Of a stretch of 64,000 bases of DNA, positions 4,984 to 41,170 are shown piece by piece. The stretch is from an uncultured Gammaproteobacteria bacterium (GTDB lineage Bacteria > Pseudomonadota > Gammaproteobacteria > JAGOUU01). A program made the translations under genes and the position numbers. The stretch spans positions 352-64,351 of the forward strand of contig CAZSRF010000002.1 of the NCBI GenBank assembly GCA_964609155.1, given 5' to 3'. The stretch's first letter is position 1. Every line of letters begins with the position of its first letter. Under the pieces are notes generated by a model that saw only the letters and a program-made list of their open reading frames with translations, was not told where the DNA came from and did not search any database.

Positions 4984-5145
4984 ATGAAGAAAAAATTAAG
5001 CTTAGTGTCAATAATCTTAGCTAGTTTGGCTCTAGGTGCATGCGCGCCTTATATGAACAGACAGTTGGTAGAAGAAGTGCCTAGAAAACTAGACGCTCCT
5101 TGTGTTCCAACTAAAGACGGTATGTGTGCTGGTTGGTCTAAATAG
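4984..5145 (+). CDS. small predicted lipoprotein (53 aa; MKKKLSLVSIILASLALGAC...)
   Basis: Not in the ORF track because it is under 60 aa. ATG at 4984, stop at 5143-5145. Signal peptide with lipobox LALGAC. Lies in an otherwise empty intergenic gap. Confidence 0.4.
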   Translation: MKKKLSLVSIILASLALGACAPYMNRQLVEEVPRKLDAPCVPTKDGMCAGWSK

Positions 5146-5162
5146 TAGTCAAGTTAAATTAG

Positions 5163-6113
5163 TTAAAGTGAAGAATTAACATATTTAACACTTCCGATAG
5201 GAACTGGAATACCAAGAAACTCATTAGCTACTGAGTCAGTGGTGTTCCAGTCTACTTTGTAATTCATGTTCAAACCTAATAATTTATCTTTGATTAAGTC
5301 TTTCTTGTAAGAAAAACTTTCACTATCTTCTGATAAAGGCTTATGTGCTTCTAAATAGATATTTTCACCATCAGATCCTACTTTGTAGGGTTCGTTTATT
5401 ATTTTAACAGGAGTACCTACAGGCACAATATTAAATAAGTTTTTAATATCCGGGTTAAATAATCTGATACATCCATGGCTCACTCTAAGGCCAACTCCTA
5501 TTTCCACATTTGAGCCATGCAGTAAATAACCCGGAGCACTTAAGCGCAATACGTGTTTCCCTAGTGGGTTATCAGGACCTGCTGGAATAGAATTAGCAAT
5601 TTTTTCACCTCGTTTTCTATATTCTTCTTTAATGGATTCTGGAACCGTCCAAGTTGGGTTCTGTACTTTACCAGTTACAGTTGCATTAACAACAGGAGTT
5701 CCCCAATCTTTTTTACCAATGCCCACAGGGTAAGTTATTACTTGACCAGTACCTTCAGGAAAATAATAAAGCCTTAATTCAGCAAGATTTATCACAATAC
5801 CTTTACGAGTTTTTGGAAGAACATATCGTTGTGGTATTATAAGATCGCCATAGCTTGGGGACCATGGGTTGTAGCCAGGGTTAGCTTCCTCAAGCTCATG
5901 AAAACCTACACCATAACGTTCTGAAATAGTTAAAAAATTATCCTCTGGTTTTAGTTGATCAGGAGATAATCTAACAATATTGCCTACGATATCTCCATGA
6001 GCAGGTAAATTAAAAGTTTTAGCATATAAAGCTTGCGAGCCTATCAAAGAGCAAGCACTCAATACAGCAATTTTAAAAGCGATTATTTGAGATGACATTG
6101 ATTTATAAGCCAT
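5163..6113 (-). CDS. L,D-transpeptidase with N-terminal LysM domain (YkuD family)
   Basis: Catalytic motif SHGCIRL, an N-terminal LysM-like segment and a signal peptide. Confidence 0.85.
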   Translation of the reverse strand: MAYKSMSSQIIAFKIAVLSACSLIGSQALYAKTFNLPAHGDIVGNIVRLSPDQLKPEDNFLTISERYGVGFHELEEANPGYNPWSPSYGDLIIPQRYVLPKTRKGIVINLAELRLYYFPEGTGQVITYPVGIGKKDWGTPVVNATVTGKVQNPTWTVPESIKEEYRKRGEKIANSIPAGPDNPLGKHVLRLSAPGYLLHGSNVEIGVGLRVSHGCIRLFNPDIKNLFNIVPVGTPVKIINEPYKVGSDGENIYLEAHKPLSEDSESFSYKKDLIKDKLLGLNMNYKVDWNTTDSVANEFLGIPVPIGSVKYVNSSL

Positions 6114-6325
6114 AACACACCACCAGTTGTTTATAATTATTGTTTAGTTGTTCTTCTTATAACTAAATGTTAGGTGAGCAAATTACAGATGTCAATAGTT
6201 ATTTAGCTTGTTTTGTAGAGTTGGTCAAAAAGTTCCAATTTCAGATGTAATTTTTTTTGTTTTTTGCTAGGATGCATTAATTAACACAAAATAAAATAAA
6301 TTTATAACCTTTAAATAATACATTT

Positions 6326-7201
6326 ATGGAATCTGCTGGAAAAAGTCTTCGTCAGGCATTATTAATAGAAGCTCCTTTGCAAATAATAGGCGTTATTAAT
6401 CCTTATTGCGCATTATTAGCTAAACAATCTGGATTTAATGCACTATACCTATCTGGCGCTGGAATAGCTAATGCGCAATATGGTTTACCTGATTTAGGTA
6501 TGGTTACATTAACTGAGGTAGTTCAAGAGGTGAGAAAAATTTGTCGGGTTACAGATCTACCTTTATTAGTAGATGCTGACACAGGGTTTGGTGATATCTT
6601 AAATGTTGAACGTACAGTCATCGAAATAGAGCAAGCGGGAGCTGCTGGCATACACCTAGAAGATCAGATTACATCAAAACGTTGTGGTCATCGAGATAAT
6701 AAAAAAATTGTCAGCACCGCGCAGATGGTTGATAAGATTAAGATAGCTGTAGCTAGTAAAAAAAATCAAGATTTTGTAATAATGGCTAGATCTGATGCTG
6801 TAGCAGTAGAAGGGCTCGAAGAAGCAATAAAAAGAATGCAAGCTTATGTAATAGCTGGAGCAGATATGATATTTGCTGAGGCTGTCTATAGTCTAGCTGA
6901 TTATAAAAAAATAACTGATAGTATAAACGTGCCAGTTTTAGCTAATATAACAGAGTTTGGTAAAACCCCAATGTTTACCGTAGAAGAATTATCTTCTGCG
7001 GGTATAAGATTAGTTTTGTACCCTTTAAGCGCTTTTAGAGCAATGAGCAAGGCAGCTATTGAAACTTACAAAGTTATTCGTCAAGAAAAAACACAAAAAG
7101 CATGTTTAGATAAAATGCAAACACGAGAAGAATTATACACTACTTTAGGTTATTATAACTTTGAAGATAAACTAGAAACATTTTTGAATAATAACAAATA
7201 A
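6326..7201 (+). CDS. prpB: 2-methylisocitrate lyase
   Basis: Isocitrate-lyase-family signature KRCGH. The length and operon context with prpC and prpD fit. Confidence 0.9.
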   Translation: MESAGKSLRQALLIEAPLQIIGVINPYCALLAKQSGFNALYLSGAGIANAQYGLPDLGMVTLTEVVQEVRKICRVTDLPLLVDADTGFGDILNVERTVIEIEQAGAAGIHLEDQITSKRCGHRDNKKIVSTAQMVDKIKIAVASKKNQDFVIMARSDAVAVEGLEEAIKRMQAYVIAGADMIFAEAVYSLADYKKITDSINVPVLANITEFGKTPMFTVEELSSAGIRLVLYPLSAFRAMSKAAIETYKVIRQEKTQKACLDKMQTREELYTTLGYYNFEDKLETFLNNNK

Positions 7202-7224
7202 AAAATATGTAGATAGAGGTTAAA

Positions 7225-8367
7225 ATGTCGCAAGCAACTGTAAGAAAACTAAATGGAGAAGGCTTGGCTGGAGTAACTGCGGGTAAAACTGCTATATCAA
7301 CAGTGGGTAAAGAAGGGATGGGGTTAACATACAGAGGGTACTCAATCGAAGATTTAGCATCTAGAGCTTATTTTGAAGAAATTGCTTACTTATTAATTTA
7401 TGGACGACTTCCAACAACTAGCGAATTTAATAAATATAAAAATAAATTACAATCTCTAAGAACAGTGCCAGAAAAATTACAAAAGGTTTTAGAGCTTATT
7501 CCTGCTAACGCTCATCCTATGGATGTTTTGAGAACAGCTTGTTCCTATCTTGGCACGATAGAGCCAGAAGATAACAAAAATACACCAGCTAATGTGGCAG
7601 ATAGGTTAATGGCCATCTATCCTGGTGCTTTATTGTACTGGTATCATTTTACTAAAAACAATAAAAAAATAGTTACATCTACTAATCAAGATTCTATCGC
7701 AGGCCATTTTTTAGAGTTATTACATCAAAAAGAACCAGATTCATTATGGGTGGAAGCTGTTGATTCGTCTTTGACTTTATATGCAGAACATGAGTTTAAC
7801 GCTTCAACATTTGCAGCAAGAGTTTGTACATCAACCTTGGCGGATGTATACTCAGCAATGACTGCAGCAATTGGCACATTACGTGGTAATCTTCATGGTG
7901 GTGCAAATGAAGCAGCGATGGAATTAATTGAACAATATGATTCGGTTGAAACTGCAAAAGAAGATATTAAAGAAAAACTAGCAGCTAAATACAAGATTAT
8001 GGGATTTGGGCATAGGGTATATACAACTTGTGATCCACGTTCAGATATTATTAAAAAATGGTCTAAAAAATTATCTGAGAATAGTAATAACAAAAAAAAT
8101 CATATACTTTATGCTGTATCAGAATGCATTGAGCAAATGATGTGGAGTGAGAAAAAGTTATTCCCTAATTTGGATTTTTTTAGTGCTTCTGCGTATCACT
8201 TTTGTGGAATTCCAACGGCAATGTTCACGCCTTTATTTGTTATAGCAAGAACATCTGGATGGGCGGCTCATATTATAGAACAACGAGCTGATAATAGAAT
8301 TATAAGACCAATGGCTGATTATATCGGACCTGATGAGCAGGAATTTGTAGAATTAAGCGAAAGATAA
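7225..8367 (+). CDS. prpC: 2-methylcitrate synthase
   Basis: Citrate-synthase-family motifs including GFGHRVY. About 380 aa. Confidence 0.9.
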
Positions 8368-8400
8368 TTGTTGTAATTAGTTAGGAGTTGTGTATCTAAT

Positions 8401-9858
8401 ATGTCTAATTTAAGCAGTGCGGATGTTAATATTAAACAAAATTTCGATCAAGAACTTATTGATATTGCTCAATATGTTGATCAATATCAAATAACAAATC
8501 AATTAGCTTATGATACTGCTTATTACTGTCTCATGGATTCAATAGCTTGCGCTATTCAAGCTTTAGATTTTCCAGAGTGCACTAAGCATCTTGGTCCTTA
8601 TATACCAGGCACTATAGTACCTAATGGGGCTCGTGTATTAGGCACTTCTTATGTGCTAGATCCAGTAAAAGCAGCTTATGATAATGGTGTGCTTATAAGA
8701 TGGTTGGACTATAATGATACCTGGCTTGCCCAAGAGTGGGGGCATCCATCAGATAATTTAGGTGGTATTTTAGCTGTGGCGGATTTTTTGTCAAGACAAC
8801 AATTAGCTAATAACAAGTCTTGCCTAACCGTTAAAGATATTTTAACGTATTCTATTAAGGCACATGAAGTACAAGGTGGCACAGCTTTGGAAAATTGCTT
8901 TAACAAAGTAGGGTTGGATCATGTTGTTTTAGTAAAGTTAGCCTCAACCGCAGTGATTACCAAAATGCTAGGTGGAACGTTAAAAGATATAATTAGCGCA
9001 ATATCGCAAGTTTGGGTGGATGGACAAAGTTTACGTACGTACCGTCATGCACCTAACACAGGATCTAGAAAATCATGGGCTGCTGGAGATGCAACCTCTC
9101 GTGCGGTAAAGCTAGCAATGCTTACATTAAAAGGTGAAACAGGTTATCCAAGTGCTTTAAGTGCTAAAAATTGGGGATTTTATGATGTTTGTTTCAAACA
9201 AAATAAATTGAAGTATCCTGATTATTTTAAATTTTCTAGTTATGTTATGGAAAATATTTTATTTAAAATTTCTTTTCCAGCTGAATTTCATGCGCAGACT
9301 GCAGCTGAAGCTGCAATAAAGCTTCATTCTGCAGTTAAAAATAAGTTGTCAGATATTTCTAAGATATTATTAACAACACAAGAACCAGCTATAAGAATTA
9401 TTAGTAAAAATGGTCCATTACATAATCCTGCTGATAGAGATCATTGTTTGCAATATATTGTTGCAGTTGGTTTATTATATGGTGATCTTACAGCAAGACA
9501 TTATGAAGACTCTGTAGCTAATGATCATCGTATAGATGCTTTACGTGAATGTATGATAGTTTCAGAAGATAAACAATTGACTGCCGATTACTATGATCCA
9601 AACAAACGTGCTATTGGCAACAGTGTACAAGTATATTTTAATGATGGCAGTTGTACTGAAAAGGTTTCAATTGATTATCCGGTTGGTCATAAAAATAGAC
9701 GACAAGAAGGGTTACCTTTGTTAGACGAGAAGTTTAGAGCAAGTATAAGCAACTACTATAGTAAACGTCAGTCTACTCGTATCATTGATTTATTTAGTAA
9801 TAAAGAGCAGTTATTAAAAATGCCTGTGTATGAGCTTATGGATAATTTAATAATATAG
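8401..9858 (+). CDS. prpD: 2-methylcitrate dehydratase
   Basis: About 485 aa MmgE/PrpD-like protein. Third gene of the prpBCD arrangement. Confidence 0.85.
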   Translation: MSNLSSADVNIKQNFDQELIDIAQYVDQYQITNQLAYDTAYYCLMDSIACAIQALDFPECTKHLGPYIPGTIVPNGARVLGTSYVLDPVKAAYDNGVLIRWLDYNDTWLAQEWGHPSDNLGGILAVADFLSRQQLANNKSCLTVKDILTYSIKAHEVQGGTALENCFNKVGLDHVVLVKLASTAVITKMLGGTLKDIISAISQVWVDGQSLRTYRHAPNTGSRKSWAAGDATSRAVKLAMLTLKGETGYPSALSAKNWGFYDVCFKQNKLKYPDYFKFSSYVMENILFKISFPAEFHAQTAAEAAIKLHSAVKNKLSDISKILLTTQEPAIRIISKNGPLHNPADRDHCLQYIVAVGLLYGDLTARHYEDSVANDHRIDALRECMIVSEDKQLTADYYDPNKRAIGNSVQVYFNDGSCTEKVSIDYPVGHKNRRQEGLPLLDEKFRASISNYYSKRQSTRIIDLFSNKEQLLKMPVYELMDNLII

Positions 9859-10003
9859 AATATTCAAAAATAATTATTGCTTTCTAGAGTAACAAGAACT
9901 TAGGTAGCAGCAAGCCTCTTATACCTATTAACGAGCAGATATCTTGCACAGAAGCTCTGGGTTAGTTAACAGCTAGTTGAAACTTAATTATACTTGTGTA
10001 TAA

Positions 10004-10636
10004 TTGGTTATTATGAATAAGTTGTACACAATAAGCCAAGCAGCAACCCATTATGGTGTCTCATCCTCTACTTTAAGAAGATGGGAGCGTGAAGGCAAGC
10101 TAATACCAGATAGGACAAAGGGAAAACAACGAAGATATAAACTAGTAGACGAATGTGAATCTAAACTCCAAGTAGCACCAGATAAAAAAGTTACTGTAGC
10201 CTACGCTAGAGTTAGTAGTCACGATCAAAAAGCAGATTTAGAGCGTCAAAAGCAATTACTAGAAATGTATTGTGCTTCGCAAGGTTGGCAATTTAAAGTT
10301 ATTTCCGATCTTGGTAGTGGCATGAACTACAATAAACGTGGCCTAAAAGAGTTGTTGTCGGTAATTTTAAACGGCGACATAAGTCGTTTAGTATTAACAC
10401 ATAAAGATAGATTATTAAGATTTGGTGCTGAGTTAATATTTTCACTATGTGAACGTCGAGGTGTAGAAGTAGTTATTATTAATAAAGGCGATGAACCTAG
10501 TTTCGAAGAAGATTTAGCAAAAGACGTATTGGAAATAATCACAGTGTTTTCAGCTAGATTATATGGTTCAAGAAGTAAGAAAAATAAAAAGCTATTAGAA
10601 AATCTCAAGGAAGCGGCAAGTGTTGTTGGTTCATAA
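10004..10636 (+). CDS. tnpA: IS607-family transposase TnpA (MerR-like HTH fused to serine-recombinase/resolvase catalytic domain)
   Basis: N-terminal HTH (YTISQAATHYGVSSSTLRRWEREGKL). Resolvase catalytic region VAYARVSSHDQKADLERQ with the catalytic Ser. Confidence 0.85.
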   Translation: MVIMNKLYTISQAATHYGVSSSTLRRWEREGKLIPDRTKGKQRRYKLVDECESKLQVAPDKKVTVAYARVSSHDQKADLERQKQLLEMYCASQGWQFKVISDLGSGMNYNKRGLKELLSVILNGDISRLVLTHKDRLLRFGAELIFSLCERRGVEVVIINKGDEPSFEEDLAKDVLEIITVFSARLYGSRSKKNKKLLENLKEAASVVGS

Positions 10637-11801
10637 AATTGAGCTTAAAGTCAATAATAAACAAGCAAATTATTTTGCTAAAGCTTGTGGTGTAGCGAGA
10701 TTTGCCTATAACTGGGCGTTAGATGAATGGCAAAAGCAGTACAAAGCTGGTCAAAAACCTAATGAGATTAATCTGCGGAAATATCTAAATTCTATAAAAA
10801 ACGAACAATTTCCATGGATGTTAGAAGTCACCAAAGTAGCCCCGCAGCAGGCAATCAAGAATTTAGGCACAGCATTTCAAAGATTTTTTAATCATCAGGG
10901 CAAGTACCCAAAATTTAAGAAAAAGGGAATTCACGATTCTTTTCGAGCTGACAATGGCCCAGCTAAGGTTGGGGCGGATGCTGTACAGATTCTTGATAAA
11001 AAGATTAATTTACCAAGAATTGGTTGGGTAAGATTAAAAGAAAGATTGCGATTTACTGGTCAAATAAAATCAGTGGTAATTTCAAGACGCGCAAACCGCT
11101 GGTATGCGGCAATAAGTGTAGATATCACAGAGCTAAACCAAGTGCACAAAAACCAAGGCATTGTTGGTGTAGATTTAGGTATTAAGACACTGGCCACATT
11201 ATCAACAGGTGAGCCAATAGTGGGGCCACGGGCGCACAAACAGTTGTTAACAAGAGTGAGAAAATATTCTAAAAAGTTATCCAGATGTAGAAAAGGCAGC
11301 AAGAATTATAAAAAAGCGAGACTCAAACTTAGTAAAACTCATGCCAAGATACGAGATATTAGAATAGATAATCTACATAAATTAACTACTGATTTAGCAC
11401 TGAAGTTCAATACAATAGGCATAGAAGATTTAAATATAAGCGGCATGGTTAGAAATAAGAAACTAGCTAGGCATATTATGGATGGGTCATTCTATGAATT
11501 TCGACGTCAGCTTGAGTATAAAGCTAAATGGTATGGTTCAACAGTAGTGGTTGTCGGTAGATTTTATCCATCGAGTAAGCTGTGCCATTGTTGTAATACT
11601 ATAAATCAAGAGCTGACACTTAGCGATAGGCAGTGGCAATGCAATAATTGTAATAAGCTACATGATAGAGATATCAATGCAGCTATAAATATCGCCAACT
11701 ATGCAAGGCATGCCAATATGATTGTTAGTACACAGAGCTCCTGTGGAATTTACGCTTGCGGAGAGAAAAGCGCTGGCGCAGCAGTTAACACTGCTGCGTG
11801 A
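10620..11801 (+). CDS. tnpB: TnpB (OrfB) RuvC-like RNA-guided endonuclease with C-terminal zinc finger
   Basis: N-terminus MLLVHKIELKVNNKQANYF is typical of TnpB. It has a RuvC-like split domain and a CxxC...CxxC zinc finger (CHCCN...CNNCNKLHDRDINAAINIA). It overlaps tnpA by 17 nt. Confidence 0.85.
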   Translation: MLLVHKIELKVNNKQANYFAKACGVARFAYNWALDEWQKQYKAGQKPNEINLRKYLNSIKNEQFPWMLEVTKVAPQQAIKNLGTAFQRFFNHQGKYPKFKKKGIHDSFRADNGPAKVGADAVQILDKKINLPRIGWVRLKERLRFTGQIKSVVISRRANRWYAAISVDITELNQVHKNQGIVGVDLGIKTLATLSTGEPIVGPRAHKQLLTRVRKYSKKLSRCRKGSKNYKKARLKLSKTHAKIRDIRIDNLHKLTTDLALKFNTIGIEDLNISGMVRNKKLARHIMDGSFYEFRRQLEYKAKWYGSTVVVVGRFYPSSKLCHCCNTINQELTLSDRQWQCNNCNKLHDRDINAAINIANYARHANMIVSTQSSCGIYACGEKSAGAAVNTAA

Positions 11802-12075
11802 AACTATGTCTCGTTGAAACAAGAATTTAACACTAAATTTGATCACTCTGAACAAGTATGATAAGGTTTAGATAAGTTTGAAAGAGCGGTTATGAGTCCT
11901 TTCTTCGCATTTGAGCGATAAGTACTGACTGAATATTTGCCTGTTGATAATCTAACATCTTGTTTTGTTATCAATCTATATGTTATGTTGATTAATAAAT
12001 ATATTTTTAGTATTTACTATTTTAATCGATTACTGTAAACTACAAAATATAACATGCAGCTATTCAACTAGGTAT

Positions 12076-12930
12076 ATGAGTATATTATCTGAGCATTTTT
12101 CTTTTATAAAACATCTTTGTAATCCAGATAAAAGTTTAGAGCAGGCAGCTTCTGACTTTCAAAATTTTATCATAAAGCATATATATGACGAGAATGAGCC
12201 ATACTCTCTGGATGAGTGTTACTTTTGTATTATAGATATTTTTATTGCAGAGCTATACAGTGAAATAATCCAGTCATTACAACCGTTATCTAAAGAAGAT
12301 CAAAAAAAATTTATAGAAGAATTAAGAGATAGACGTTTAAAAATTGCAGCCCCTGATAAAGAAGTTAGACTTATCTCGAGTATTGCTATACTAAAGTTGT
12401 ATTTCCATGATCATCTTGAAAAGAAACAATACATTGAGAATGTGCAAAAACAAATAGATATTTATATCGAAAATTTTGTAAAAAATGAAACTAAACGATA
12501 TTGTGCACTTTTTAGCACATCTGATTATATTTTTACTGAAGATACTCAAAGGGATCTAGAGCTTGAGATAAGCATGGGGCTTGAACTTGAGAGGTATAGA
12601 GATATATGGGTATTATTATCAGAACGTCGAAGATTTATTTTAATTGAGAATTGGCGGTATTTAATTCAAGAAAGAATACTTGGACATATTGATGCTATTT
12701 CAGCAGGTGATACTCTAAAATTAGAACCCTTAATTGCTACCATGGGCTCTTGTTTTACGGGCAGAAAAAAAATAGAATCAGTTAGCACTTGTGAGAGCGC
12801 TGTTGTTTCTGCAGCAAGAGCATTAGCTATATGTAGAGCAAGGAAGACCAGCAGTTTGTGCGGGCAATTGCCAATGGTGACACAAACAATGATATCAACT
12901 TCAACACAAAGATATTTCAAAATAAGTTAA
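12076..12930 (+). CDS. hypothetical protein with a Cys-rich C-terminus; no recognisable family
   Basis: 284-aa ORF. It is convergent with the HTTM gene, with only 3 bp between the stop codons. Confidence 0.45.
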   Translation: MSILSEHFSFIKHLCNPDKSLEQAASDFQNFIIKHIYDENEPYSLDECYFCIIDIFIAELYSEIIQSLQPLSKEDQKKFIEELRDRRLKIAAPDKEVRLISSIAILKLYFHDHLEKKQYIENVQKQIDIYIENFVKNETKRYCALFSTSDYIFTEDTQRDLELEISMGLELERYRDIWVLLSERRRFILIENWRYLIQERILGHIDAISAGDTLKLEPLIATMGSCFTGRKKIESVSTCESAVVSAARALAICRARKTSSLCGQLPMVTQTMISTSTQRYFKIS

Positions 12931-12933
12931 TGC

Positions 12934-14592
12934 TCATGTTCGCTCGTTAGGGCAGTATTGTATATAATACCAACCGTTAACTTGCCCATAGGGAGTGCCT
13001 TTTGTGGAGTCTTGATTGTAAAGTTGTGGGTACCAGTTATATAATATTTTTATTCTCTTTAGTGGTGGAGTATCGTTCTTTCGGTTTTCTCTTTTGCATA
13101 ATGCCCGAATTAGACAGTTTTCTTTGAAGTAATTATAATTTTTATTTGGGATATTGTAAGAAATAAAATATTTCCACCACCAATTATTTTTAATGGCATA
13201 AAAGTATTCTCGTATGTCTGTGGTTACGACAGGCCTGTAGCCATCAATTGGCCATAATGGCCTTTCATTGCCTGATTCATCTATACCGTAAAATCTTAGC
13301 ATGTGACTAATTGTAGCTGTACGGTTAAAAAACCCCCAGTATTGATCTAGGCCAAAAACTTCTGAATATTCATGAATAATAGGTAATTTGTATTTATATT
13401 TTTCATTATAAGTAACATAATTTATAGCAACTACTACGGCTAAAGATATAGATATAAAAATCTTTGATATTAAAGATAAATGTAATTCAATTTTAATTAA
13501 TTTATTATTAATAAGTTTATTATTGATAAGTTTGTTTTTTAGATTAGTATAGTTATTAAGTTTATTAATATTATATCTAAAATAATTTTTCTGGATATTT
13601 TTCTGGATATTGTCCCAGAATTCTTCAGGTAAGATGATAATTATTGCTACAACACTAATCAATAAAAAAGGGCCAATATATAAAAATGTCCTAAATAACA
13701 GATGTAATCCCAGTAGAACTATAAACCAAAATACTCTTAGATTGTCTCTGATTTTTTTGATAGGAAAAAATAGTACTAAAGGGGTTAAGATCTCTATAAA
13801 TAGTACAGATATAGTTACTAACTGCAATAGTTTGTTTGAAAAAATATCATGAATCAAAAAACCAAAAGGTGTTAAGTAAAGATAATTATGGATAATGTAA
13901 TTCAGTGCTGTATGGTGTACCCACCATTTGTCATCTATATCTTTAAGTAGTGCGCTTAATAAATATAGTAATGCAATCTGTATTAAAATTGCAAAAGTAG
14001 CTACTGAAAAATATTTATTTTTAAAAATTTGTTGATTACTAAGGCTATCAAAAGATAATTTGGCATTTAATGGTAAAAAAAATCCCCAAAATAATAATAA
14101 TCTTAAATAAAGATCGAATCCTGACATAATATAAAGATTGCGATTCTGTAAAGATAGCAGCAAAAACCAACTAATAAAACAATTGAGCTTGGTTTTATAA
14201 CCAATCATAAGAAAAGTTGCTGAAATAAACTGAATAATAAATAAAATATAAAAATATATTTTATTTCCATTTAAGAGATAAACTGAATGTCGCCAGTTAA
14301 GTGGCCATGCAGAATAAAGTTGAATAAGTTCTACTCGGCTAAGCAAACCTTCATCAGTAAAAAACATGGTGATATCTTGGCTGAGATTAAATAAAAAAAA
14401 TAATAAAGTTAATCCTAAACCAATACGAAATAAAGCAAGAGCTCGTAAATCTATGCTAAAAGCATCTTTAATATAATTTTGAAAAATTAATATTATTTTA
14501 TATAAGGAATTTTTTTTATATATAACCAAAGGTACCTTCCAGATCTTAAAATAGGATATAATACTTTTGCAACCAGCTGATTTCTGAAACAA
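12934..14592 (-). CDS. HTTM-domain (vitamin K-dependent gamma-carboxylase-like) polytopic membrane protein; start uncertain
   Basis: N-terminal DLRALALFRIGLGL motif and a multi-helix membrane core typical of HTTM, followed by about 170 aa of soluble C-terminal domain. The annotated ATG overlaps the upstream DCC ORF by 100 nt. Confidence 0.65.
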   Translation of the reverse strand: MFQKSAGCKSIISYFKIWKVPLVIYKKNSLYKIILIFQNYIKDAFSIDLRALALFRIGLGLTLLFFLFNLSQDITMFFTDEGLLSRVELIQLYSAWPLNWRHSVYLLNGNKIYFYILFIIQFISATFLMIGYKTKLNCFISWFLLLSLQNRNLYIMSGFDLYLRLLLFWGFFLPLNAKLSFDSLSNQQIFKNKYFSVATFAILIQIALLYLLSALLKDIDDKWWVHHTALNYIIHNYLYLTPFGFLIHDIFSNKLLQLVTISVLFIEILTPLVLFFPIKKIRDNLRVFWFIVLLGLHLLFRTFLYIGPFLLISVVAIIIILPEEFWDNIQKNIQKNYFRYNINKLNNYTNLKNKLINNKLINNKLIKIELHLSLISKIFISISLAVVVAINYVTYNEKYKYKLPIIHEYSEVFGLDQYWGFFNRTATISHMLRFYGIDESGNERPLWPIDGYRPVVTTDIREYFYAIKNNWWWKYFISYNIPNKNYNYFKENCLIRALCKRENRKNDTPPLKRIKILYNWYPQLYNQDSTKGTPYGQVNGWYYIQYCPNERT

Positions 14593-14897
14593 ATATATAT
14601 TATTTTATTGAAAAAATTGTTTTTTTCAATCAGTTGGGAAAGTTTATGAATACATTTATCGCCATAGAAGATCTGTTCTTTGTAGATTAAAACCATCCCT
14701 TTGTTCAAGTCATAATCATTACTATAAAGGGCATTGGTTAATTGATTATCTATACGAGCATTGTGTAATATTAATAAGGGCATGGCATGTTTTAACTGCA
14801 TTAATTCAACAAATTTATCGCAAAAAGGGCATTCGCCATCATAGATCAAATGATTGTTATACTTTTTGATAACGTCTGTTATGGTTAGACAATCCAT
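14493..14897 (-). CDS. DCC-family thiol-disulfide oxidoreductase (DUF393)
   Basis: 134 aa with a CPFC redox motif near the N-terminus (YDGECPFCDKFV). It sits immediately upstream of an HTTM gene, a known pairing. Confidence 0.7.
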   Translation of the reverse strand: MDCLTITDVIKKYNNHLIYDGECPFCDKFVELMQLKHAMPLLILHNARIDNQLTNALYSNDYDLNKGMVLIYKEQIFYGDKCIHKLSQLIEKNNFFNKIIYICFRNQLVAKVLYPILRSGRYLWLYIKKIPYIK

Positions 14898-14918
14898 ATT
14901 TATCTTTATGATTTATAA

Positions 14919-15758
14919 TTATGTTATTAATTTATTAATATTTTTATTAGAAATAATATGAGCAGTGATTTCTTCTATAGAATGTGTCGTTGTATATAAA
15001 AAAGAAACATTTTCTTTTTTAAAAAGTTCCTCAGCTAGTTTAACCTCTAATGTGCACTGTTTTAAATCAGCATAATTACTGTTTGGACGACGTTTTTGTC
15101 TAATGCTTTGTAGTCTCCTAGGGTCAATACTAAGTCCATAAATTTTATTTTTATATGGTTTTAAAAAGGCTGGAAGTTCGTGTTTCTCTAAATCATCAAT
15201 CACCAAAGGGTAATTAGCTGCTTTAATACCATATTGGATGGCCATATAAAGACAAGTTGGAGTTTTGCCACATCGGGATACACCAATAATGATAATCTCT
15301 GCCTCATCATATTTTTTAGTAGCTAAGCCATCATCAGTGTTTAAAGAAAAATTGATAGCTTCCATTCGAGCATCATATTGAAACAGATTATCTAAGCTAT
15401 GTGTTTTACCCACTGTATGATCAGATTTATAACCAAGCTCTTTTTCTAATGGGCTAATATATTGTTCAAAAAAATCCAAAACTAAAGCATTTGATGTTTT
15501 AATAGCTTCTCTGATAGCACTTGAAACCAAAGTGCTTATAATAATAGGACGGAAGCCACTTTGCAGAGATTCTTTGTTGATGGATTCTGCGACTTTTTTT
15601 GCTTTTTCTACTGTATTAATATAAGGAATTTTTTGAGGGGTGTATTGTAACTTGCTGAACTGAGTAAGTAAGCTTTGACCAAGAGTCTCCACTGTAATTC
15701 CAGTTCCATCTGAAATAAAGTAAATTTGCCTTTTTTTTATATGCTGCACAATTGTCAT
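14919..15758 (-). CDS. ppsR: PEP synthetase regulatory protein (bifunctional kinase/pyrophosphorylase, DUF299)
   Basis: P-loop GVSRCGKTPTCLYMA. It is divergent from ppsA, the conserved arrangement. Confidence 0.85.
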   Translation of the reverse strand: MTIVQHIKKRQIYFISDGTGITVETLGQSLLTQFSKLQYTPQKIPYINTVEKAKKVAESINKESLQSGFRPIIISTLVSSAIREAIKTSNALVLDFFEQYISPLEKELGYKSDHTVGKTHSLDNLFQYDARMEAINFSLNTDDGLATKKYDEAEIIIIGVSRCGKTPTCLYMAIQYGIKAANYPLVIDDLEKHELPAFLKPYKNKIYGLSIDPRRLQSIRQKRRPNSNYADLKQCTLEVKLAEELFKKENVSFLYTTTHSIEEITAHIISNKNINKLIT

Positions 15759-15883
15759 TATTTATAGTTTATTGTGTATGTTTATAATATATTACAGAGT
15801 TTAAGATTAAAATGTCTTTGAATTAATGATACAATTTTCAGTTATTAAATGATAGATTAAACACAAATAGATAAGGTACAGAT
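15759..15883. promoter_or_regulatory. divergent ppsR/ppsA promoter region
   Basis: 125-bp AT-rich intergenic spacer between divergently transcribed genes. Individual promoter boxes were not assigned. Confidence 0.4.
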
Positions 15884-18256
15884 ATGACAGCAGCATTTGT
15901 CAAATGGTTTAGTCAGCTTGGGATGAAAGATTTACCATCTGTGGGTGGTAAAAACGCTTCTTTAGGAGAAATGATTGGTAGCTTAACTAATCTTGGAGTA
16001 AAAGTTCCTAACGGTTTTGCGACTACAGCAGAAGCCTATCGAGAATTTTTAGTTCAAAATAATTTAGCTAATAGAATAAATAGTAAACTATCTGATTTAG
16101 ATATCAATAATGTCTCGAAATTAGCGCAAGTAGGTGCTGAAATCAGGCAAGATATATTAGATACACCATTAATGCCTAGACTTGAGGCTGAAATTAGAGA
16201 GTACTATCAAACTCTTGTTGGTAATCTTCAATCTTCGGTAGCAATACGATCTTCTGCAACTGCAGAAGATCTACCTGATGCATCTTTTGCTGGTCAACAA
16301 GAAACATATTTGAATATCTTAGGCATAGATAATGTTTTATTAGCCATTAAGCAAGTTTTTGCTAGTTTATTTAACGACCGTGCAATAGCTTATCGAGTAC
16401 ATAAAGGGTTTTCTCATTCTGAGGTTGCATTATCTGCCGGTATTCAGCAGATGGTTAGAAGTGATCTTGGTGCAAGTGGAGTAATGTTTACTTTAGATAC
16501 GGAAACAGGCTTTGAAGACGTTGTATTTATTACATCATCCTATGGACTGGGAGAAGCTGTTGTACAGGGTATAGTTAATCCTGATGAGTTTTATGTTTAC
16601 AAAGATTCTGTACGACATAATAAAGAGGCAGTTATTAATCGTCGTTTGGGAAGTAAATCAGTTGCTATGATTTATACAAGTGATCACCGAGCAGGATACT
16701 CAGTAGAAACTATAGAGGTTGCCTCAGATAAGAAAAATAAGTTTTCTATTTCAGATAATGACTTATTAATTTTAGCTAAACATGCAATGACTATTGAACA
16801 GCATTATGGCTGTCATATGGACATTGAATGGGCTAAAGATGGGTTGAGTGGTGAGATATTTATTCTTCAAGCAAGACCTGAGACGGTTAATAGCCAGATA
16901 AAGAATAAAATTATTACTAAATTTGAATTTACTGATAAATTATATAATACACTGCCTTTGGTTAGTGGTCGTGCTATTGGGCAAAAAATTGGTATTGGTA
17001 AAGTTAAAATTCTCAATACACATAAAGAAATGCAAGATTTTTCTCAGGGTGATGTATTGGTAGCCGATATGACAGATCCTGATTGGGAACCAATCATGGC
17101 AAAAGCTAGTGCTATAGTTACTAATCGAGGTGGTAGAACATGTCATGCTGCGATTATTGCCCGAGAGTTAGGTATCCCTGCCGTTGTGGGTTGCGGTGAT
17201 GCTACAGATAAATTACAAAGTGGCAATTTAATTACTGTGTCTTGTTGTGAAGGAGAAACTGGCTATATTTATAGCGGCCATAGAGACTTTAATGTTGATG
17301 CTATAAATGTTGATAATATGCCAGAAATTCCGTGTAAAATTATGATGAATATTGGTAATCCAGAAAAAGCATTTACTTTTCAAAATTTACCGAATGCAGG
17401 TGTTGGCTTAGCAAGATTAGAATTTATTATCAGTCATATGATAGGAGTGCATCCAAGAGCGTTGTTAGATTTTGATGTCTTAGATAGAGAATTAAAGCAA
17501 GAAGTTTCCGATAAGATTAGTGGCTATAAATCTCCGGTGGATTTTTATATTAATAAATTAGCGGAAGGAATCGCCATGCTTGCAGTGGCCTTTAAAAATA
17601 AACCAGTTATAGTGCGATTGTCTGATTTTAAATCTAACGAATATGCTAATTTATGCGGAGGAGTTAACTACGAACCACGCGAAGAAAACCCTATGATTGG
17701 CTATAGAGGTGCTGCTAGGTATATTGATAAAAATTTTAAATATTGCTTTGAACTGGAATGTTTGGCAATTAAAAAAGTTCGTCAAGATATGGGGTTAAAA
17801 AATATTCAGATCATGATCCCATTTGTTAGAACATTAGAGCAAGCAAAAAAAGTTATTGCTACTTTAGAGGATTTTGGATTATCTCGAAATAAGGATGACT
17901 TAAAAATAATTATGATGTGTGAAGTACCATCTAATGTTATTCTTGCGGAAGAGTTCTTAGAATATTTTGATGGTTTTTCTATCGGTTCTAATGATCTCAC
18001 TCAGTTAACTTTAGGTATAGATCGAGATTCCGGAATTGTTGCGGATAGTTTTGATGAACGTGATCCTGCAGTAATGAAATTATTAGAGCAGGTAATAAAA
18101 ATATGTAAACAAAAAAGTAAATACATAGGAATATGCGGCCAAGGACCTTCAGATCATCCAGATTTTGCAAGTTGGCTTCTTGCTCAGGGGATTGATTCTT
18201 TATCTCTTAATCCTGATACTGTATTACAAACATGGTTATATTTAGCTAAGTCTTGA
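15884..18256 (+). CDS. ppsA: phosphoenolpyruvate synthase
   Basis: 790 aa. PEP-utilising enzyme motifs, including the phosphohistidine region GGRTCHAAIIARELGIPAVVG. Confidence 0.92.
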   Translation: MTAAFVKWFSQLGMKDLPSVGGKNASLGEMIGSLTNLGVKVPNGFATTAEAYREFLVQNNLANRINSKLSDLDINNVSKLAQVGAEIRQDILDTPLMPRLEAEIREYYQTLVGNLQSSVAIRSSATAEDLPDASFAGQQETYLNILGIDNVLLAIKQVFASLFNDRAIAYRVHKGFSHSEVALSAGIQQMVRSDLGASGVMFTLDTETGFEDVVFITSSYGLGEAVVQGIVNPDEFYVYKDSVRHNKEAVINRRLGSKSVAMIYTSDHRAGYSVETIEVASDKKNKFSISDNDLLILAKHAMTIEQHYGCHMDIEWAKDGLSGEIFILQARPETVNSQIKNKIITKFEFTDKLYNTLPLVSGRAIGQKIGIGKVKILNTHKEMQDFSQGDVLVADMTDPDWEPIMAKASAIVTNRGGRTCHAAIIARELGIPAVVGCGDATDKLQSGNLITVSCCEGETGYIYSGHRDFNVDAINVDNMPEIPCKIMMNIGNPEKAFTFQNLPNAGVGLARLEFIISHMIGVHPRALLDFDVLDRELKQEVSDKISGYKSPVDFYINKLAEGIAMLAVAFKNKPVIVRLSDFKSNEYANLCGGVNYEPREENPMIGYRGAARYIDKNFKYCFELECLAIKKVRQDMGLKNIQIMIPFVRTLEQAKKVIATLEDFGLSRNKDDLKIIMMCEVPSNVILAEEFLEYFDGFSIGSNDLTQLTLGIDRDSGIVADSFDERDPAVMKLLEQVIKICKQKSKYIGICGQGPSDHPDFASWLLAQGIDSLSLNPDTVLQTWLYLAKS

Positions 18257-18278
18257 TCAGGAGTTAAGCAGAGATTCT

Positions 18279-18617: not shown

Positions 18618-19934
18618 TTAACCATCCCAAACTTGGTTAGTAGCAATAAACAATGCAGCTCCAATCGTCCAGTCTATATCGTGCTTAGGAATTAAAAAGT
18701 TATGGTAATCATCTGGCATGTTATAACCATTATTTAATAGTATTTTTAAATAAGTAGCGTCAAAACAAGCCTCATTAAGTTCTGCTTTGCTAATATTGGG
18801 GAATTTACTTTTAAATGCTTCATGGTTTGCATGGCAACTATCAGGAATATTTTTAATTAGATCGACAGGAAGCTTAGAATTAAAAAAATTAAAATTATAA
18901 TAATATCCAGAAGCAGCAACAAATTTCATATTGCTTTTTAATGCGGACTTGATAGCTTTAGCAATTGTTAGGTGTTCTTTTTTATTTTGCAAATAAATTT
19001 TAATAAGATCGCCGCATCTAAAATAATTAAAATTATTTGTTTTATTTATCTCATGGGGTGTGTTGACACCTGTTTCTGGGATGCTGCATTCTTTGTTGGC
19101 TTGTTTAGAATCATAAGTAGCAATATTCTTTTTAGTTTGTACTAACCCATAACCTAAAATACTATTGCTATAAATAGTGTATTCTGAGCTATCAAATTTT
19201 AGTTTAAATAAATTTTTTTTAAGATCCGAGTTTTTTTTATTCTTCTTTTCATTATATTCCATAGCAACTTGAGTAGAGGCTCCACCCATATCTAGAGCAG
19301 CTATGGTAGGTTTATTAAGTTGAATGGTTTGAAGTTTATAATTAATACTTAGCCAATCAAAAATTCCTTCCAATTCTCCTGGTATAGTCTTTGCTATTAT
19401 CATGTCAGGGTTATGGCCTGAATTAATAATAACCTGTTTGATTTTTTTATAAAGTTCGTATTGTTGTTTGGCGTGATGTAATCGCATGCCGGCAGTGGCG
19501 TAAAAATATATTGGTATCTCTTTTATTTCAATATGTAGGTTTTTTAATTGACCATCTAACTTTTTATATAGAGGTAAAATATGCTCGGAAATATTTTGAT
19601 TTTGATGGTCGTGACAGTAATCAGCGATTGCATGTTTATCATTGCTTTTAGCTATGGCAATTTCAGTAAGCTTTGGAATGGCGTTAGGAGACTCTTTATT
19701 TTTATCTCTTTGCACATGATAGGCATGCATCCTTGAGCCAGTGCTTCCTAGATCAACGATAATAATATTTTTATGTGGATTTTTCTTGATAGATAAATCA
19801 TCAGGAGATACACAGTAATTAGGTTGACTTTCTTTTGGTTTGGAAAGATAGTCTTTTAAATTAAACCCGGCGAGCAGTGTTTCCGCACCAAGAGAAGAAA
19901 GCAATAAAAACAGACAGATACAAATCTTTCGCAT
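18618..19934 (-). CDS. secreted ecto-NTPDase / apyrase (GDA1/CD39 family)
   Basis: Signal peptide, then apyrase conserved region 1 (IIIVDLGSTGSRMHAYH) and later ACR-like blocks (ALDMGGASTQVA). A eukaryote-type enzyme known in Legionella. Confidence 0.8.
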   Translation of the reverse strand: MRKICICLFLLLSSLGAETLLAGFNLKDYLSKPKESQPNYCVSPDDLSIKKNPHKNIIIVDLGSTGSRMHAYHVQRDKNKESPNAIPKLTEIAIAKSNDKHAIADYCHDHQNQNISEHILPLYKKLDGQLKNLHIEIKEIPIYFYATAGMRLHHAKQQYELYKKIKQVIINSGHNPDMIIAKTIPGELEGIFDWLSINYKLQTIQLNKPTIAALDMGGASTQVAMEYNEKKNKKNSDLKKNLFKLKFDSSEYTIYSNSILGYGLVQTKKNIATYDSKQANKECSIPETGVNTPHEINKTNNFNYFRCGDLIKIYLQNKKEHLTIAKAIKSALKSNMKFVAASGYYYNFNFFNSKLPVDLIKNIPDSCHANHEAFKSKFPNISKAELNEACFDATYLKILLNNGYNMPDDYHNFLIPKHDIDWTIGAALFIATNQVWDG

Positions 19935-41055: not shown

Positions 41056-41170
41056 ACTTACGCAGAATGATTCTAGCTTGTCATCTCGGTCAAGCACGAA
41101 GTGCATAGAACCATGATCTTTTTTGCAAGATACCGGCTCCTCGGCCGGTATGACAGGTTTTTATGTAGCT
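41056..41170. repeat. About 110-bp MITE/REP-like element, copy A, with GC-rich hairpin TACCGGCTCCTCGGCCGGTA
   Basis: Lies exactly between the protease stop (41053-41055) and the convergent sensor-kinase stop (41161-41163). It aligns with copies B and C. Confidence 0.6.

What the first reader, a model, noticed from the sequence alone, without database searches (positions are those of the whole stretch)
12076..14897. HTTM (vitamin-K-carboxylase-like) + DCC thiol-disulfide oxidoreductase module with a convergent Cys-rich orphan protein
The minus strand carries a DCC/DUF393 protein (CPFC motif) directly upstream of a 552-aa HTTM-domain membrane protein. The HTTM N-terminus reads DLRALALFRIGLGL, and the protein has a 170-aa soluble C-terminal domain. 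HTTM/DCC pairs are widespread in bacteria but their function and substrate are unknown. The HTTM gene also has a low-complexity NKLINNKLINNKLI repeat, encoded by 15-bp DNA repeats near 13500-13545. It converges on a 284-aa Cys-rich orphan ORF (12076-12930) with only 3 bp between stop codons, so the two transcripts must overlap at their 3' ends. That orphan is a candidate partner or substrate, but this is speculation.
Basis: partly seen in the sequence, partly recalled or inferred. Interest (0 to 1): 0.55.

Follow-up and report, generated by a model that had tools for sequence, protein, structure and literature searches.

The report
Bacterial GGCX-like membrane enzyme with DCC partner
The region holds a real two-gene unit, a small CxxC redox protein plus a membrane enzyme distantly related to the human vitamin-K-dependent carboxylase; this pairing is already known and uncharacterised, and the neighbouring 284-aa "orphan" gene is a lineage-specific bystander, not a partner.

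Summary
The minus strand carries ppsR, then a 134-aa DCC1-like protein (DGECPFC), then an overlapping HTTM membrane protein. A 284-aa ORF converges on it with 3 bp between the stop codons. The HTTM protein is 520-531 aa, not 552. Its ancestral ATG is ATA here. The orphan is not Cys-rich (8 Cys, 2.8%).

In 26 of 76 family members the DCC domain is inserted in the cytoplasmic loop before the last membrane helix. That is exactly where this protein has its K/N-rich repeat linker. DCC is therefore most likely a detached cytoplasmic subunit.

The orphan is a real gene (dN/dS 0.29). It exists only in this species and one sister lineage, has no signal peptide, and is replaced by unrelated genes in other relatives. 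It is not a partner or substrate.

Verdict: a divergent new member of a known, functionally unsolved module. Interest is modest.

The parts
14493..14897 (-). DCC1-like (DUF393) thioredoxin-fold protein, 134 aa, no signal peptide or membrane helix
   Evidence: Pfam PF04134 scores 34.7 bits against a cut-off of 27.8. Orthologues in L001, L004 and L008 are 84, 56 and 41% identical, with invariant YDGxCPxC. dN/dS is 0.113.
14820..14840 (-). DxxCxxC redox motif (D20 G E C23 P F C26)
   Evidence: Read directly from the sequence. It is invariant in the four orthologues.
12934..14496 (-). GGCX-like HTTM membrane protein. It is 520 codons if counted from the ATA that replaces the ancestral ATG, and 531 aa if it starts at TTG 14529.
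14494..14496 (-). ATA codon at the position of the ancestral ATG start (ATGA overlap with the DCC stop in the sister lineage)
   Evidence: Alignment of the window, L006 and L001-L003. The ATA is reproduced in an independent assembly, L006.
14527..14529 (-). In-frame TTG, the nearest canonical alternative start, with a 37-nt overlap with DCC. GGAAGG lies 5 nt upstream.
   Evidence: Sequence. A gene caller chose this start in L006.
13942..13944 (-). Lys185, equivalent of the GGCX catalytic base Lys218
   Evidence: HMM alignment to GGCX. The residue is conserved in at least 90% of the 76 homologues and invariant in the close clade. The role of K218 is taken from PMC12647623 and PMC13486548.
13792..13794 (-). 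Glu235, equivalent of GGCX Asp263 (partner of the catalytic Lys)
   Evidence: HMM alignment. The residue is conserved in at least 90% of the family. D263E keeps 25% of activity in GGCX according to PMC13486548.
13474..13626 (-). K/N-rich low-complexity cytoplasmic linker (residues 291-341) between membrane helices 8 and 9. It contains the 15-bp repeat (13493-13533) and the 12-bp repeat (13585-13611). Fused relatives carry the DCC domain at this position.
   Evidence: Tandem repeats. Model pLDDT is 55-68 here. About 10 Lys+Arg against 3 Asp+Glu in the stretch (sequence and loop counts). Position of the DCC insertion in the fusions.
13408..13473 (-). Last membrane helix (residues 342-363), leading to the C-terminal domain
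   Evidence: AF2 secondary structure and hydropathy.
12937..13407 (-). C-terminal alpha/beta domain (residues 364-520), predicted periplasmic. It carries the family motif LDQxW (13336-13350) and two Cys conserved in the clade (C467, C515).
   Evidence: AF2 model. Q385 and W387 are conserved in at least 90% of the 76 homologues; in the 20-sequence C-terminal-domain alignment the corresponding columns (Q48, W50 in that numbering) are invariant. There is no sequence match to GGCX or to any PDB chain.
14919..15758 (-). ppsR (PEP synthase regulatory kinase/pyrophosphorylase), 21 bp upstream of DCC; probably the first gene of the same transcript
   Evidence: Pfam PF03618, E=1.5e-76. The order ppsR, (DCC), HTTM is conserved in L001, L004, L010 and L011.
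12076..12930 (+). Convergent 284-aa lineage-specific ORF. It is a real gene but not part of the module.
   Evidence: No Pfam, NCBIfam or PHROGs hit. The only homologue is the 286-aa sister orthologue, 68% identical. dN/dS is 0.285. AF2 gives pLDDT 55, a helical N-terminal 210 aa and a disordered tail. No fold match.

Best explanation
SHOWN.
- The minus strand at 12934-14897 carries a two-gene unit. It lies 21 bp downstream of ppsR and is probably co-transcribed with it.
- The first gene encodes a 134-aa DCC1-like thioredoxin-fold protein with a DGECPFC motif.
- The second gene overlaps the end of the first. It encodes a membrane protein of about 520-531 aa with about nine membrane helices. [quoted passage not shown]
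- Its layout is an HTTM core, a K/N-rich loop, a last membrane helix and a 157-aa C-terminal domain.
- It keeps the equivalents of the GGCX residues that deprotonate the hydroquinone and stack on CO2: K185=K218, E235=D263, W191=W223, F277=F299.
- It lacks the Asn159/His160 pair that holds the substrate glutamate.
- In many relatives the DCC domain is inserted in the loop between the HTTM core and the last helix. This is exactly where the window protein has its repeat linker.

INFERRED.
- That loop is cytoplasmic, so the free-standing DCC protein is a detached cytoplasmic subunit that docks on that face.
- The membrane protein is a quinol- and O2-dependent oxygenase of the epoxidase, 'strong-base-generating' type. 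It acts on a periplasmic or membrane substrate that is still unknown and is not a GGCX-type Glu peptide.
- DCC serves as its thiol redox partner. The most economical role is to return the oxidised quinone (epoxide or quinone) to a usable state.

The convergent 284-aa ORF is a real, fast-evolving, lineage-specific cytoplasmic protein, typical of effector-like orphans in amoeba-associated bacteria. It merely abuts the module.
For: Identity:
- DCC passes Pfam's cut-off.
- The HTTM family profile hits GGCX at E=1.3e-14 and aligns K185 to K218, E235 to D263, H265 to H287, G275/F277 to G297/F299 and W191 to W223 (conservation).
- The AF2 model has pLDDT 92 and pTM 0.92.
- Foldseek against the PDB returns only GGCX entries, with E from 2.6e-7 to 1.7e-4 for 15 entries and 2.8e-2 for a 16th (apo 9bum_A). 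TM-score is 0.42-0.49 for the 15 entries (0.33 for 9bum_A), over about 510-560 alignment columns.
- The roles of the GGCX residues are taken from PMC12647623 and PMC13486548.

Partnership:
- 26 of 76 homologues carry both Pfam domains.
- In the fusions where the motifs were found, DxxCxxC lies at about residue 287-342. That is after the HTTM core motif FLP (mostly about residue 118-165) and before the C-terminal QxW motif (about 457-522).
- The DCC and HTTM orthologues diverge in step: 84/56/41% against 89/64/45% identity.
- They remain adjacent even where the arrangement changed. In L008 the two genes are convergent with a 5-bp gap.
- Both are under purifying selection, with dN/dS 0.11 and 0.10.

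Topology:
- The linker has about 10 Lys+Arg against 3 Asp+Glu.
- It corresponds to the loop before TM9 in GGCX, whose following region is lumenal (LL9).

Orphan excluded.
Against: - No activity, substrate or expression data exist for this protein or for any close relative.
- The single-sequence Pfam HTTM score is below the curated cut-off.
- The C-terminal domain has no detectable sequence similarity to GGCX. Whether it supplies the Tyr395/Met401-type active-site elements is therefore untested.
- Asn159, His160 and Asn290 of GGCX are not conserved.
- Two related lineages (L010, L011/L012) have ppsR followed directly by HTTM, with no adjacent DCC. DCC may therefore be dispensable or encoded elsewhere.
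- The proposed DCC role requires a cytoplasmic CxxC to act on a quinone whose head group, in GGCX, sits towards the other face of the membrane.
- The ancestral ATG start is lost in the window.
- The organism's quinone type is unknown.
Confidence: 0.6

Rival explanations
1. The HTTM protein is not an oxygenase. It is an LMF1/SdpB-type maturation factor: a membrane scaffold or thiol-disulfide relay that, together with DCC, helps to fold or process exported proteins.
For: 9 of 76 family members give weak hits to Pfam LMF1 (best E=7e-5). DCC is a CxxC thioredoxin-fold protein. Two Cys in the predicted periplasmic domain are conserved in the clade. From my own knowledge, B. subtilis SdpB is an HTTM protein needed for toxin maturation, and LMF1 affects redox balance in the ER.
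Against: The residues that carry out quinol deprotonation and CO2 stacking in GGCX are conserved in at least 90% of the family, which a pure scaffold would not require. The window protein itself hits neither LMF1 nor any NCBIfam model, including any SdpB model that library may hold. DCC is on the cytoplasmic side, which is the wrong compartment for oxidising exported proteins.
Confidence: 0.22
2. The convergent 284-aa ORF is the partner or substrate of the HTTM/DCC module.
For: The stop codons are only 3 bp apart in the window and 2 bp apart in the sister lineage L001. The ORF is a real gene under purifying selection. It contains 8 Cys.
Against: It is found only in two closely related lineages. 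At the same position L004 has only small ORFs, L010 has an unrelated 158-aa ORF, L013 has unrelated ORFs and L008 has DCC itself. It has no signal peptide or membrane helix, so it cannot reach a periplasmic active site. Its dN/dS is three times that of the module.
Confidence: 0.04
3. The HTTM gene is being inactivated in this organism. The loss of the ATG start (ATG to ATA) makes it an incipient pseudogene.
For: ATA replaces the ATG that overlaps the DCC stop in the sister lineage, and an independent assembly reproduces it. ATA is a very poor initiator in bacteria (my own knowledge).
Against: The 520-codon frame is intact, with dN/dS 0.098 against the sister lineage. An in-frame TTG with GGAAGG 5 nt upstream lies 33 nt further up. 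Translational coupling at overlapping stop and start codons tolerates weak start codons (my own knowledge). A very recent loss cannot be excluded by dN/dS.
Confidence: 0.1
4. DCC and HTTM are joined into a single polypeptide by -1 ribosomal frameshifting on the A_AAA_AAA run (14510-14517).
For: The HTTM frame is -1 relative to DCC. It is open for 36 codons upstream in the window and in L001. The A8 run is conserved between those two lineages.
Against: L004 has no A-run and only 7 open codons upstream. Natural fusions do not place DCC at the N-terminus; they insert it in the loop before the last helix, so a frameshift product would not reproduce a known architecture. No stimulatory structure was identified.
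Confidence: 0.03

Closest known systems
[quoted passage not shown]
   Same: It is the only structural relative in the PDB. The overall layout is the same: an HTTM core, a basic cytoplasmic loop, a last membrane helix and an extracytoplasmic C-terminal domain. The equivalents of Lys218, Asp263 (as Glu), Trp223 and Phe299 are conserved.
   Different: About 15% identity. The C-terminal domain is about 157 aa, against about 380 aa in GGCX, and has no sequence similarity to it. The Glu-binding Asn159/His160 pair and Asn290 are not conserved. There are no known Gla substrates. It has a DCC partner, which GGCX lacks.
HTTM-DCC fusion proteins and the HTTM-DCC / DUF5819 pair (Melghirimyces example, bioRxiv 10.64898/2026.08.19.745780)
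   Same: The same three modules are present: an HTTM core, a DCC1-like domain, and a membrane helix followed by an extracytoplasmic domain. 26 of 76 homologues of the window protein are such fusions.
   Different: Here DCC is a separate upstream gene, and the HTTM core stays fused to the helix plus C-terminal domain. In the Melghirimyces case HTTM-DCC is a single protein and the helix plus DUF5819 is separate. The window protein gives no Pfam DUF5819 hit; only 2 of 76 relatives do, weakly.
MloH (Streptomyces malonomycin pathway carboxylase)
   Same: It is a bacterial GGCX homologue with the HTTM region fused to a C-terminal region that corresponds structurally to DUF5819. It is cited as the one bacterial member with a demonstrated carboxylation reaction.
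   Different: MloH sits in a biosynthetic gene cluster and acts on a PKS-NRPS intermediate. The window locus is flanked by housekeeping genes (ppsA/ppsR, prpBCD) with no biosynthetic genes. I did not compare the sequences directly.
Giant-virus GGCX-like epoxidases next to VKOR (PMC13486548)
   Same: They keep the catalytic Lys and have Glu in place of Asp263. They replace Asn290 with a hydrophobic residue, as this family does. They are proposed to be epoxidases rather than carboxylases, paired with a thiol-based quinone reductase.
   Different: The viral proteins are truncated (no C-terminal domain), are fused to or adjacent to a desaturase, and are paired with VKOR rather than with a DCC protein.
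LMF1 (lipase maturation factor) and B. subtilis SdpB
   Same: Both are members of the same HTTM superfamily. Some relatives of the window protein hit Pfam LMF1 weakly.
   Different: The window protein hits neither LMF1 nor any NCBIfam model. There is no sdpA/sdpC-like context.

Membership tests
Pfam HTTM (PF05090) | Score at or above the curated gathering cut-off (27.7 bits) | tested here: not met
   22.0-22.3 bits, E=1.1-1.4e-4, covering 252 of 259 model positions. 53 of 76 homologues hit the model at E<=0.01.
HTTM / GGCX superfamily | Significant profile-level sequence similarity to GGCX across the HTTM core | tested here: met
   The profile built from 76 homologues hits human GGCX at E=1.3e-14, with profile positions 83-346 aligned to GGCX residues 116-371.
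HTTM / GGCX superfamily | GGCX-like three-dimensional fold | tested here: met
GGCX (vitamin-K-dependent carboxylase) | Catalytic base Lys218 with its partners Asp263 and Trp223 | tested here: met
   K185, E235 (a conservative Asp-to-Glu change) and W191 align to these residues and are conserved in at least 90% of the family.
GGCX (vitamin-K-dependent carboxylase) | CO2-stacking Phe299 | tested here: met
   G275/F277 align with G297/F299 and are conserved in at least 90% of the family.
GGCX (vitamin-K-dependent carboxylase) | Glutamate-binding Asn159/His160 | tested here: not met
   The aligned residues are G126/F127. The nearest conserved residue is D128.
GGCX (vitamin-K-dependent carboxylase) | The conserved lumenal segment of about residues 374-418 (Tyr395, Met401, Arg406), needed for carboxylation | tested here: inconclusive
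   The C-terminal domain profile finds no GGCX match. The family motif LDQxWxMF might correspond to GGCX ...SWDMM..., but I recalled that GGCX sequence from memory and the correspondence is untested.
GGCX (vitamin-K-dependent carboxylase) | Carboxylase or epoxidase activity with a quinol, and the existence of Gla substrates | not testable with these tools
   Needs biochemistry.
Pfam DCC1-like (PF04134) | Score above the gathering cut-off, and the DxxCxxC motif | tested here: met
   34.7 bits against 27.8, covering 111 of 113 model positions. DGECPFC at residues 20-26, invariant in the orthologues.
HTTM-DCC module | The two domains are fused, or encoded side by side, in relatives | tested here: met
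   Fused in 26 of 76 homologues. Adjacent in the window, L001, L004 and L008. Not adjacent in L010 and L011/L012.
SdpB family and other named NCBIfam families | Hit to a curated NCBIfam model | tested here: not met
   No NCBIfam family at E<=0.1 for any of the three proteins.
Pfam LMF1 (PF06762) / DUF5819 (PF19136) | Pfam hit on the window protein | tested here: not met
   No hit for the window protein. 9 of 76 relatives hit LMF1 and 2 of 76 hit DUF5819, all weakly.

The most novel reading that the evidence does not exclude
The DCC protein is the missing cytoplasmic reductase of a self-contained bacterial 'vitamin-K-like cycle'. The GGCX-like HTTM enzyme oxidises a membrane quinol to an epoxide to generate a strong base for an unknown modification. 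DCC docks on the helix-8/helix-9 loop, where it is physically inserted in fused relatives, and re-reduces the epoxide or quinone through its CxxC using cytoplasmic thiol reducing power. This would replace VKOR. According to the review read, bacterial VKOR homologues generally lack epoxide reductase activity.
Probability: 0.15. Interest if true: 0.7.

Novelty: new member of a known kind. Interest (0 to 1): 0.3.

Why it matters
What bacterial homologues of the vitamin-K-dependent carboxylase do is a long-standing open question, and only MloH has a known reaction.

This locus adds a divergent clade from bacteria that look amoeba-associated and Legionellales-like. The clade keeps the quinol-activating residues but lacks the glutamate-binding residues. 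That argues for the same chemistry on a different substrate.

The locus also shows that DCC is an interchangeable module of the enzyme. It can be inserted in the cytoplasmic loop, or encoded upstream, or encoded downstream. This gives a concrete and testable docking site and a role for the uncharacterised DCC/DUF393 family.

The locus does not by itself reveal the substrate. The organism appears to be known only from assemblies. The practical value is therefore as one more data point, not as a breakthrough.

Tried and rejected
1. Orphan as partner. I ran a word-indexed homologue search and an exhaustive HMMER search of 1.84 billion representatives. They found only the protein itself, the sister orthologue, and two hits that I judge spurious: a repeat-rich surface protein, and a marginal hit at E=9e-4. 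Pfam, NCBIfam and PHROGs gave nothing. The AF2 model was poor (pLDDT 55) and its Foldseek search gave nothing significant (best E=0.45).

2. A frameshift fusion of DCC and HTTM on the A8 run. I considered this because fusions exist. I rejected it after finding that natural fusions insert DCC in the loop before the last helix, not at the N-terminus, and that the A-run and the long open upstream frame are absent in L004.

3. Sequence link between the C-terminal domain and GGCX. A 20-sequence profile of the domain found no GGCX match in the PDB.

4. A PDB relative of DCC. None was found by sequence.

5. Scan of species-representative genomes. The first alignment was too diverse and the call failed with an error. 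The second found only the MAG already in hand, so the organism could not be named.

6. An exact look-up of the orphan in the contig index failed, although the protein is in the collection.

7. The afdb50 fold library was unavailable.

8. Rfam found no RNA family in the window.

9. The terminator scan found no site at the convergent junction, and the total count did not exceed shuffled controls (4 against 2.2 +/- 1.5). Overlapping 3' ends are therefore likely but not shown.

10. A homologue search with DCC returned only the protein itself and the sister orthologue, because of the word-index limit. The orthologues were instead taken from the related loci.


Full report
**1. What is in the sequence.**

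The window is AT-rich (about 32% GC, and 26-27% across the two genes). The layout, is:

| Coordinates | Strand | Feature |
|---|---|---|
| 14919-15758 | - | ppsR (Pfam Kinase-PPPase, E=1.5e-76) |
| 14493-14897 | - | 134-aa ORF, 21 bp downstream of ppsR |
| 12934-14592 | - | ORF overlapping the end of the 134-aa ORF |
| 12076-12930 | + | 284-aa ORF, 3 bp from the stop of the ORF above |
| 10004-11801 | + | IS607-type element (serine recombinase plus TnpB) |
| 8401-9858 | + | prpD |

- The 134-aa protein passes the curated Pfam cut-off for DCC1-like (34.7 bits against 27.8). It carries DGECPFC at residues 20-26.
- The 15-bp repeat that encodes NKLINNKLINNKLI is real (13493-13533, 2.7 copies). 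A second repeat of 12 bp encodes NIQKNIQK.

**2. The length and start of the HTTM gene.**

- 552 aa is only the maximal ORF.
- In the closest relative (L001-L003, from Logan assemblies; HTTM 89% identical) the gene starts at an ATG that overlaps the DCC stop codon (ATGA). This is the classic arrangement for translational coupling and gives 517 aa.
- In the window that codon is ATA (14496-14494) and the DCC stop is TAA.
- An independent assembly from another run (L006) shows the same base.
- The next canonical in-frame start is TTG 14529, with GGAAGG 5 nt upstream. It would add 11 residues and overlap DCC by 37 nt. A gene caller chose it in L006.
- The gene is otherwise intact and strongly constrained: dN/dS is 0.098 against L001, and 0.113 for DCC.
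- I therefore regard it as functional. Which start is used cannot be settled from sequence.

**3. Is it really an HTTM/GGCX relative?**

- On its own the protein scores 22 bits against Pfam HTTM, below the 27.7-bit cut-off. No NCBIfam model matches.
- The family evidence is strong. A search of the 5.8-billion-protein collection gave 75 homologues.
- A profile built from them hits human GGCX in the PDB at E=1.3e-14 over the whole HTTM core.
- An AlphaFold2 model built on that alignment has pLDDT 92 and pTM 0.92.
- Foldseek against the PDB returns only GGCX entries as significant hits: 15 entries with E from 2.6e-7 to 1.7e-4 and a 16th (apo 9bum_A) at 2.8e-2, all with probability 1.00 and about 510-560 aligned columns.
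- The model has about nine membrane-length helices. Residues 291-341 form a lower-confidence segment; the model's 10-residue blocks covering 301-330 average pLDDT 55-68. A last helix follows (342-363), then an alpha/beta domain (364-520).

**4. Active-site comparison.**

The residue roles come from the GGCX structure papers (PMC12647623; PMC13486548). The HMM alignment gives this mapping:

| GGCX residue | Role in GGCX | Window residue | Conserved in the family? |
|---|---|---|---|
| Lys218 | general base that deprotonates the hydroquinone | K185 | yes |
| Asp263 | partner of the base; D263E keeps 25% activity | E235 | yes |
| Trp223 | stacks on the Lys | W191 | yes |
| Gly297 / Phe299 | CO2 stacking | G275 / F277 | yes |
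| Asn159 / His160 | hold the substrate glutamate | G126 / F127 | no |
| Asn290 | hydrogen bond to vitamin K hydroquinone | aligns to a hydrophobic position | no |

- All the residues marked 'yes' are conserved in at least 90% of the 76 homologues and are invariant in the close clade.
- The hydrophobic replacement at the Asn290 position is also seen in the giant-virus epoxidase-like proteins.
- The C-terminal domain has its own conserved motif, LDQxW (Q385 and W387), and two Cys conserved in the clade. Its profile finds no GGCX match by sequence.
- I read this as conserved quinol-activating chemistry with a different substrate. That reading is an inference.

**5. The DCC partnership and a fusion/fission pattern.**

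- 26 of the 76 family members contain both Pfam domains.
- A pairwise alignment with one fusion protein (P0008), followed by motif positions in all of them, shows a consistent order: the HTTM core, then the DCC domain (DxxCxxC at about residue 287-342), then a hydrophobic helix, then the C-terminal domain with its QxW motif (about residue 457-522).
- DCC is therefore inserted exactly where the window protein has its K/N-rich repeat linker.
- That linker has about 10 Lys+Arg and 3 Asp+Glu. It corresponds to the basic loop before TM9 of GGCX, and the region that follows TM9 in GGCX is lumenal (LL9). The loop, and hence DCC, should be cytoplasmic, and the C-terminal domain periplasmic.
- A 2026 preprint describes a third arrangement: an HTTM-DCC fusion with a separate protein made of a membrane helix plus DUF5819. 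An AF3 complex of the two resembles whole GGCX.
- The system therefore consists of three modules in different fusion states. In the window, DCC is the detached one.
- Within the window's own clade the DCC orthologues diverge in step with HTTM (84/56/41% against 89/64/45% identity).
- They stay adjacent even when rearranged. In L008 the two genes converge with a 5-bp gap.
- Two lineages (L010, L011/L012) have ppsR followed directly by HTTM without an adjacent DCC. Adjacency is therefore frequent but not obligatory.

**6. The 284-aa ORF.**

- It is a real gene. The frame is open for 284 codons in AT-rich DNA and is conserved as a 286-aa ORF in L001. Identity there is 68% and dN/dS is 0.285.
- It is not Cys-rich (2.8%).
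- It has no family match.
- Apart from the sister orthologue, it has no credible homologue among 5.8 billion clustered proteins or 1.84 billion representatives searched exhaustively.
- Its model is helical for about 210 residues with a disordered 75-residue tail, at low confidence. No fold match was found.
- At the same position other lineages differ. L004 has only small ORFs. L010 has an unrelated 158-aa ORF. L013 has unrelated ORFs. L008 has DCC.
- The protein has no signal peptide or membrane segment, so it could not reach a periplasm-facing active site.
- The window also holds ankyrin, Sel1 and CD39-NTPDase genes and several large ORFs without family matches. A related locus encodes the Legionella type II secretion substrate NttC.
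- Orphan genes are common in such amoeba-associated genomes. This one is most simply another of them, and its proximity to the HTTM stop codon is incidental.
- The 3' ends of the two transcripts probably overlap, since no terminator-like site lies at the junction. That has not been shown.

**7. Mechanism.**

- Most likely (confidence about 0.6 for the package, lower for the chemistry alone): ppsR-DCC-HTTM is a single transcript.
- The HTTM protein is a quinol- and O2-dependent oxygenase of the GGCX type, acting on a substrate that is not a Glu peptide.
- DCC is its cytoplasmic CxxC subunit.
- The main rival is a non-oxygenase role as an LMF1/SdpB-like maturation factor (about 0.22).
- Incipient pseudogenisation (about 0.1), the orphan as partner (about 0.04) and a frameshift fusion (about 0.03) are minor alternatives.

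**8. Novelty.**

- The HTTM-DCC association is already recorded in domain databases and discussed in the literature. GGCX-like bacterial proteins are also known.
- This is a divergent new member that Pfam's cut-off misses.
- The added points are the insertion site of DCC and the residue-level argument for conserved chemistry with a different substrate.
- Interest is modest (0.3). The most novel reading that remains open is DCC as the reductase of a self-contained quinone epoxide cycle. I give it a probability of about 0.15.

Noticed in passing
window 9893-11962: An IS607-family element is inserted here: a MerR-HTH serine recombinase at 10004-10636 plus a TnpB (OrfB_IS605 / Cas12f-like TNB) at 10620-11801. 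The insertion is about 2.07 kb and is absent from the sister locus L001. It lies between prpD and the orphan gene and ends 113 bp upstream of the orphan ATG. Any TnpB guide RNA at its right end would point towards the orphan.
   Followed up: partly
window 5097-9892 compared with 11963-18265 (against L001): Divergence from the sister lineage is mosaic. The prpBCD side is 97.2% identical at the nucleotide level (prpD dS 0.14). The orphan-HTTM-DCC-ppsR-ppsA block is 88.6% identical (dS 0.59-0.68 for orphan, HTTM and DCC; 0.31 for ppsR). This suggests recombination or different histories on the two sides of the IS insertion point.
   Followed up: partly
window 14494-14496 and 14527-14540: The ancestral ATG start of the HTTM gene is ATA in this organism, confirmed in a second assembly. 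In the same short stretch, a synonymous AGA-to-AGG change in DCC creates GGAAGG 5 nt upstream of the in-frame TTG, where the sister lineage has GGAAGA. This may be a compensatory shift of the start site.
   Followed up: partly
window 18618-19934, 39145-41055, 41161-44109, 45351-47408, 48320-50149, 50199-50879, 55241-56425: The window holds eukaryote-like and virulence-type genes typical of Legionellales-like amoeba-associated bacteria: a GDA1/CD39 NTPDase, an M4 metalloprotease, a LetS/GacS-type hybrid kinase, an ankyrin-repeat protein, a Sel1-repeat protein, and two large ORFs (685 and 609 aa) with no Pfam match.
   Followed up: no
L004 9704-10102: In the related MAG, the space occupied by the orphan in the window holds two tandem copies of a short ORF fragment sharing the peptide IKSFQIRTEIAIDESIIMPNHLHRIVMIHSN. 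This could be a duplicated remnant of a small mobile-element gene.
   Followed up: no
L008 8049-8462: In the most distant clade member, the HTTM/DCC pair sits at a different chromosomal site, next to a homologue of the Legionella type II secretion substrate NttC and next to Hsp33. This supports a Legionellales affiliation for the clade.
   Followed up: no
window 14898-14918; L001, L004, L010, L011: ppsR is followed within 11-25 bp in L001, L004 and L011 (21 bp in the window; at most about 100 bp in L010, where the called start is truncated) by DCC-HTTM, or directly by HTTM, in four related lineages. The module is therefore probably co-transcribed with the PEP synthase regulator. Whether this linkage is functional or only positional is unknown.
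   Followed up: partly
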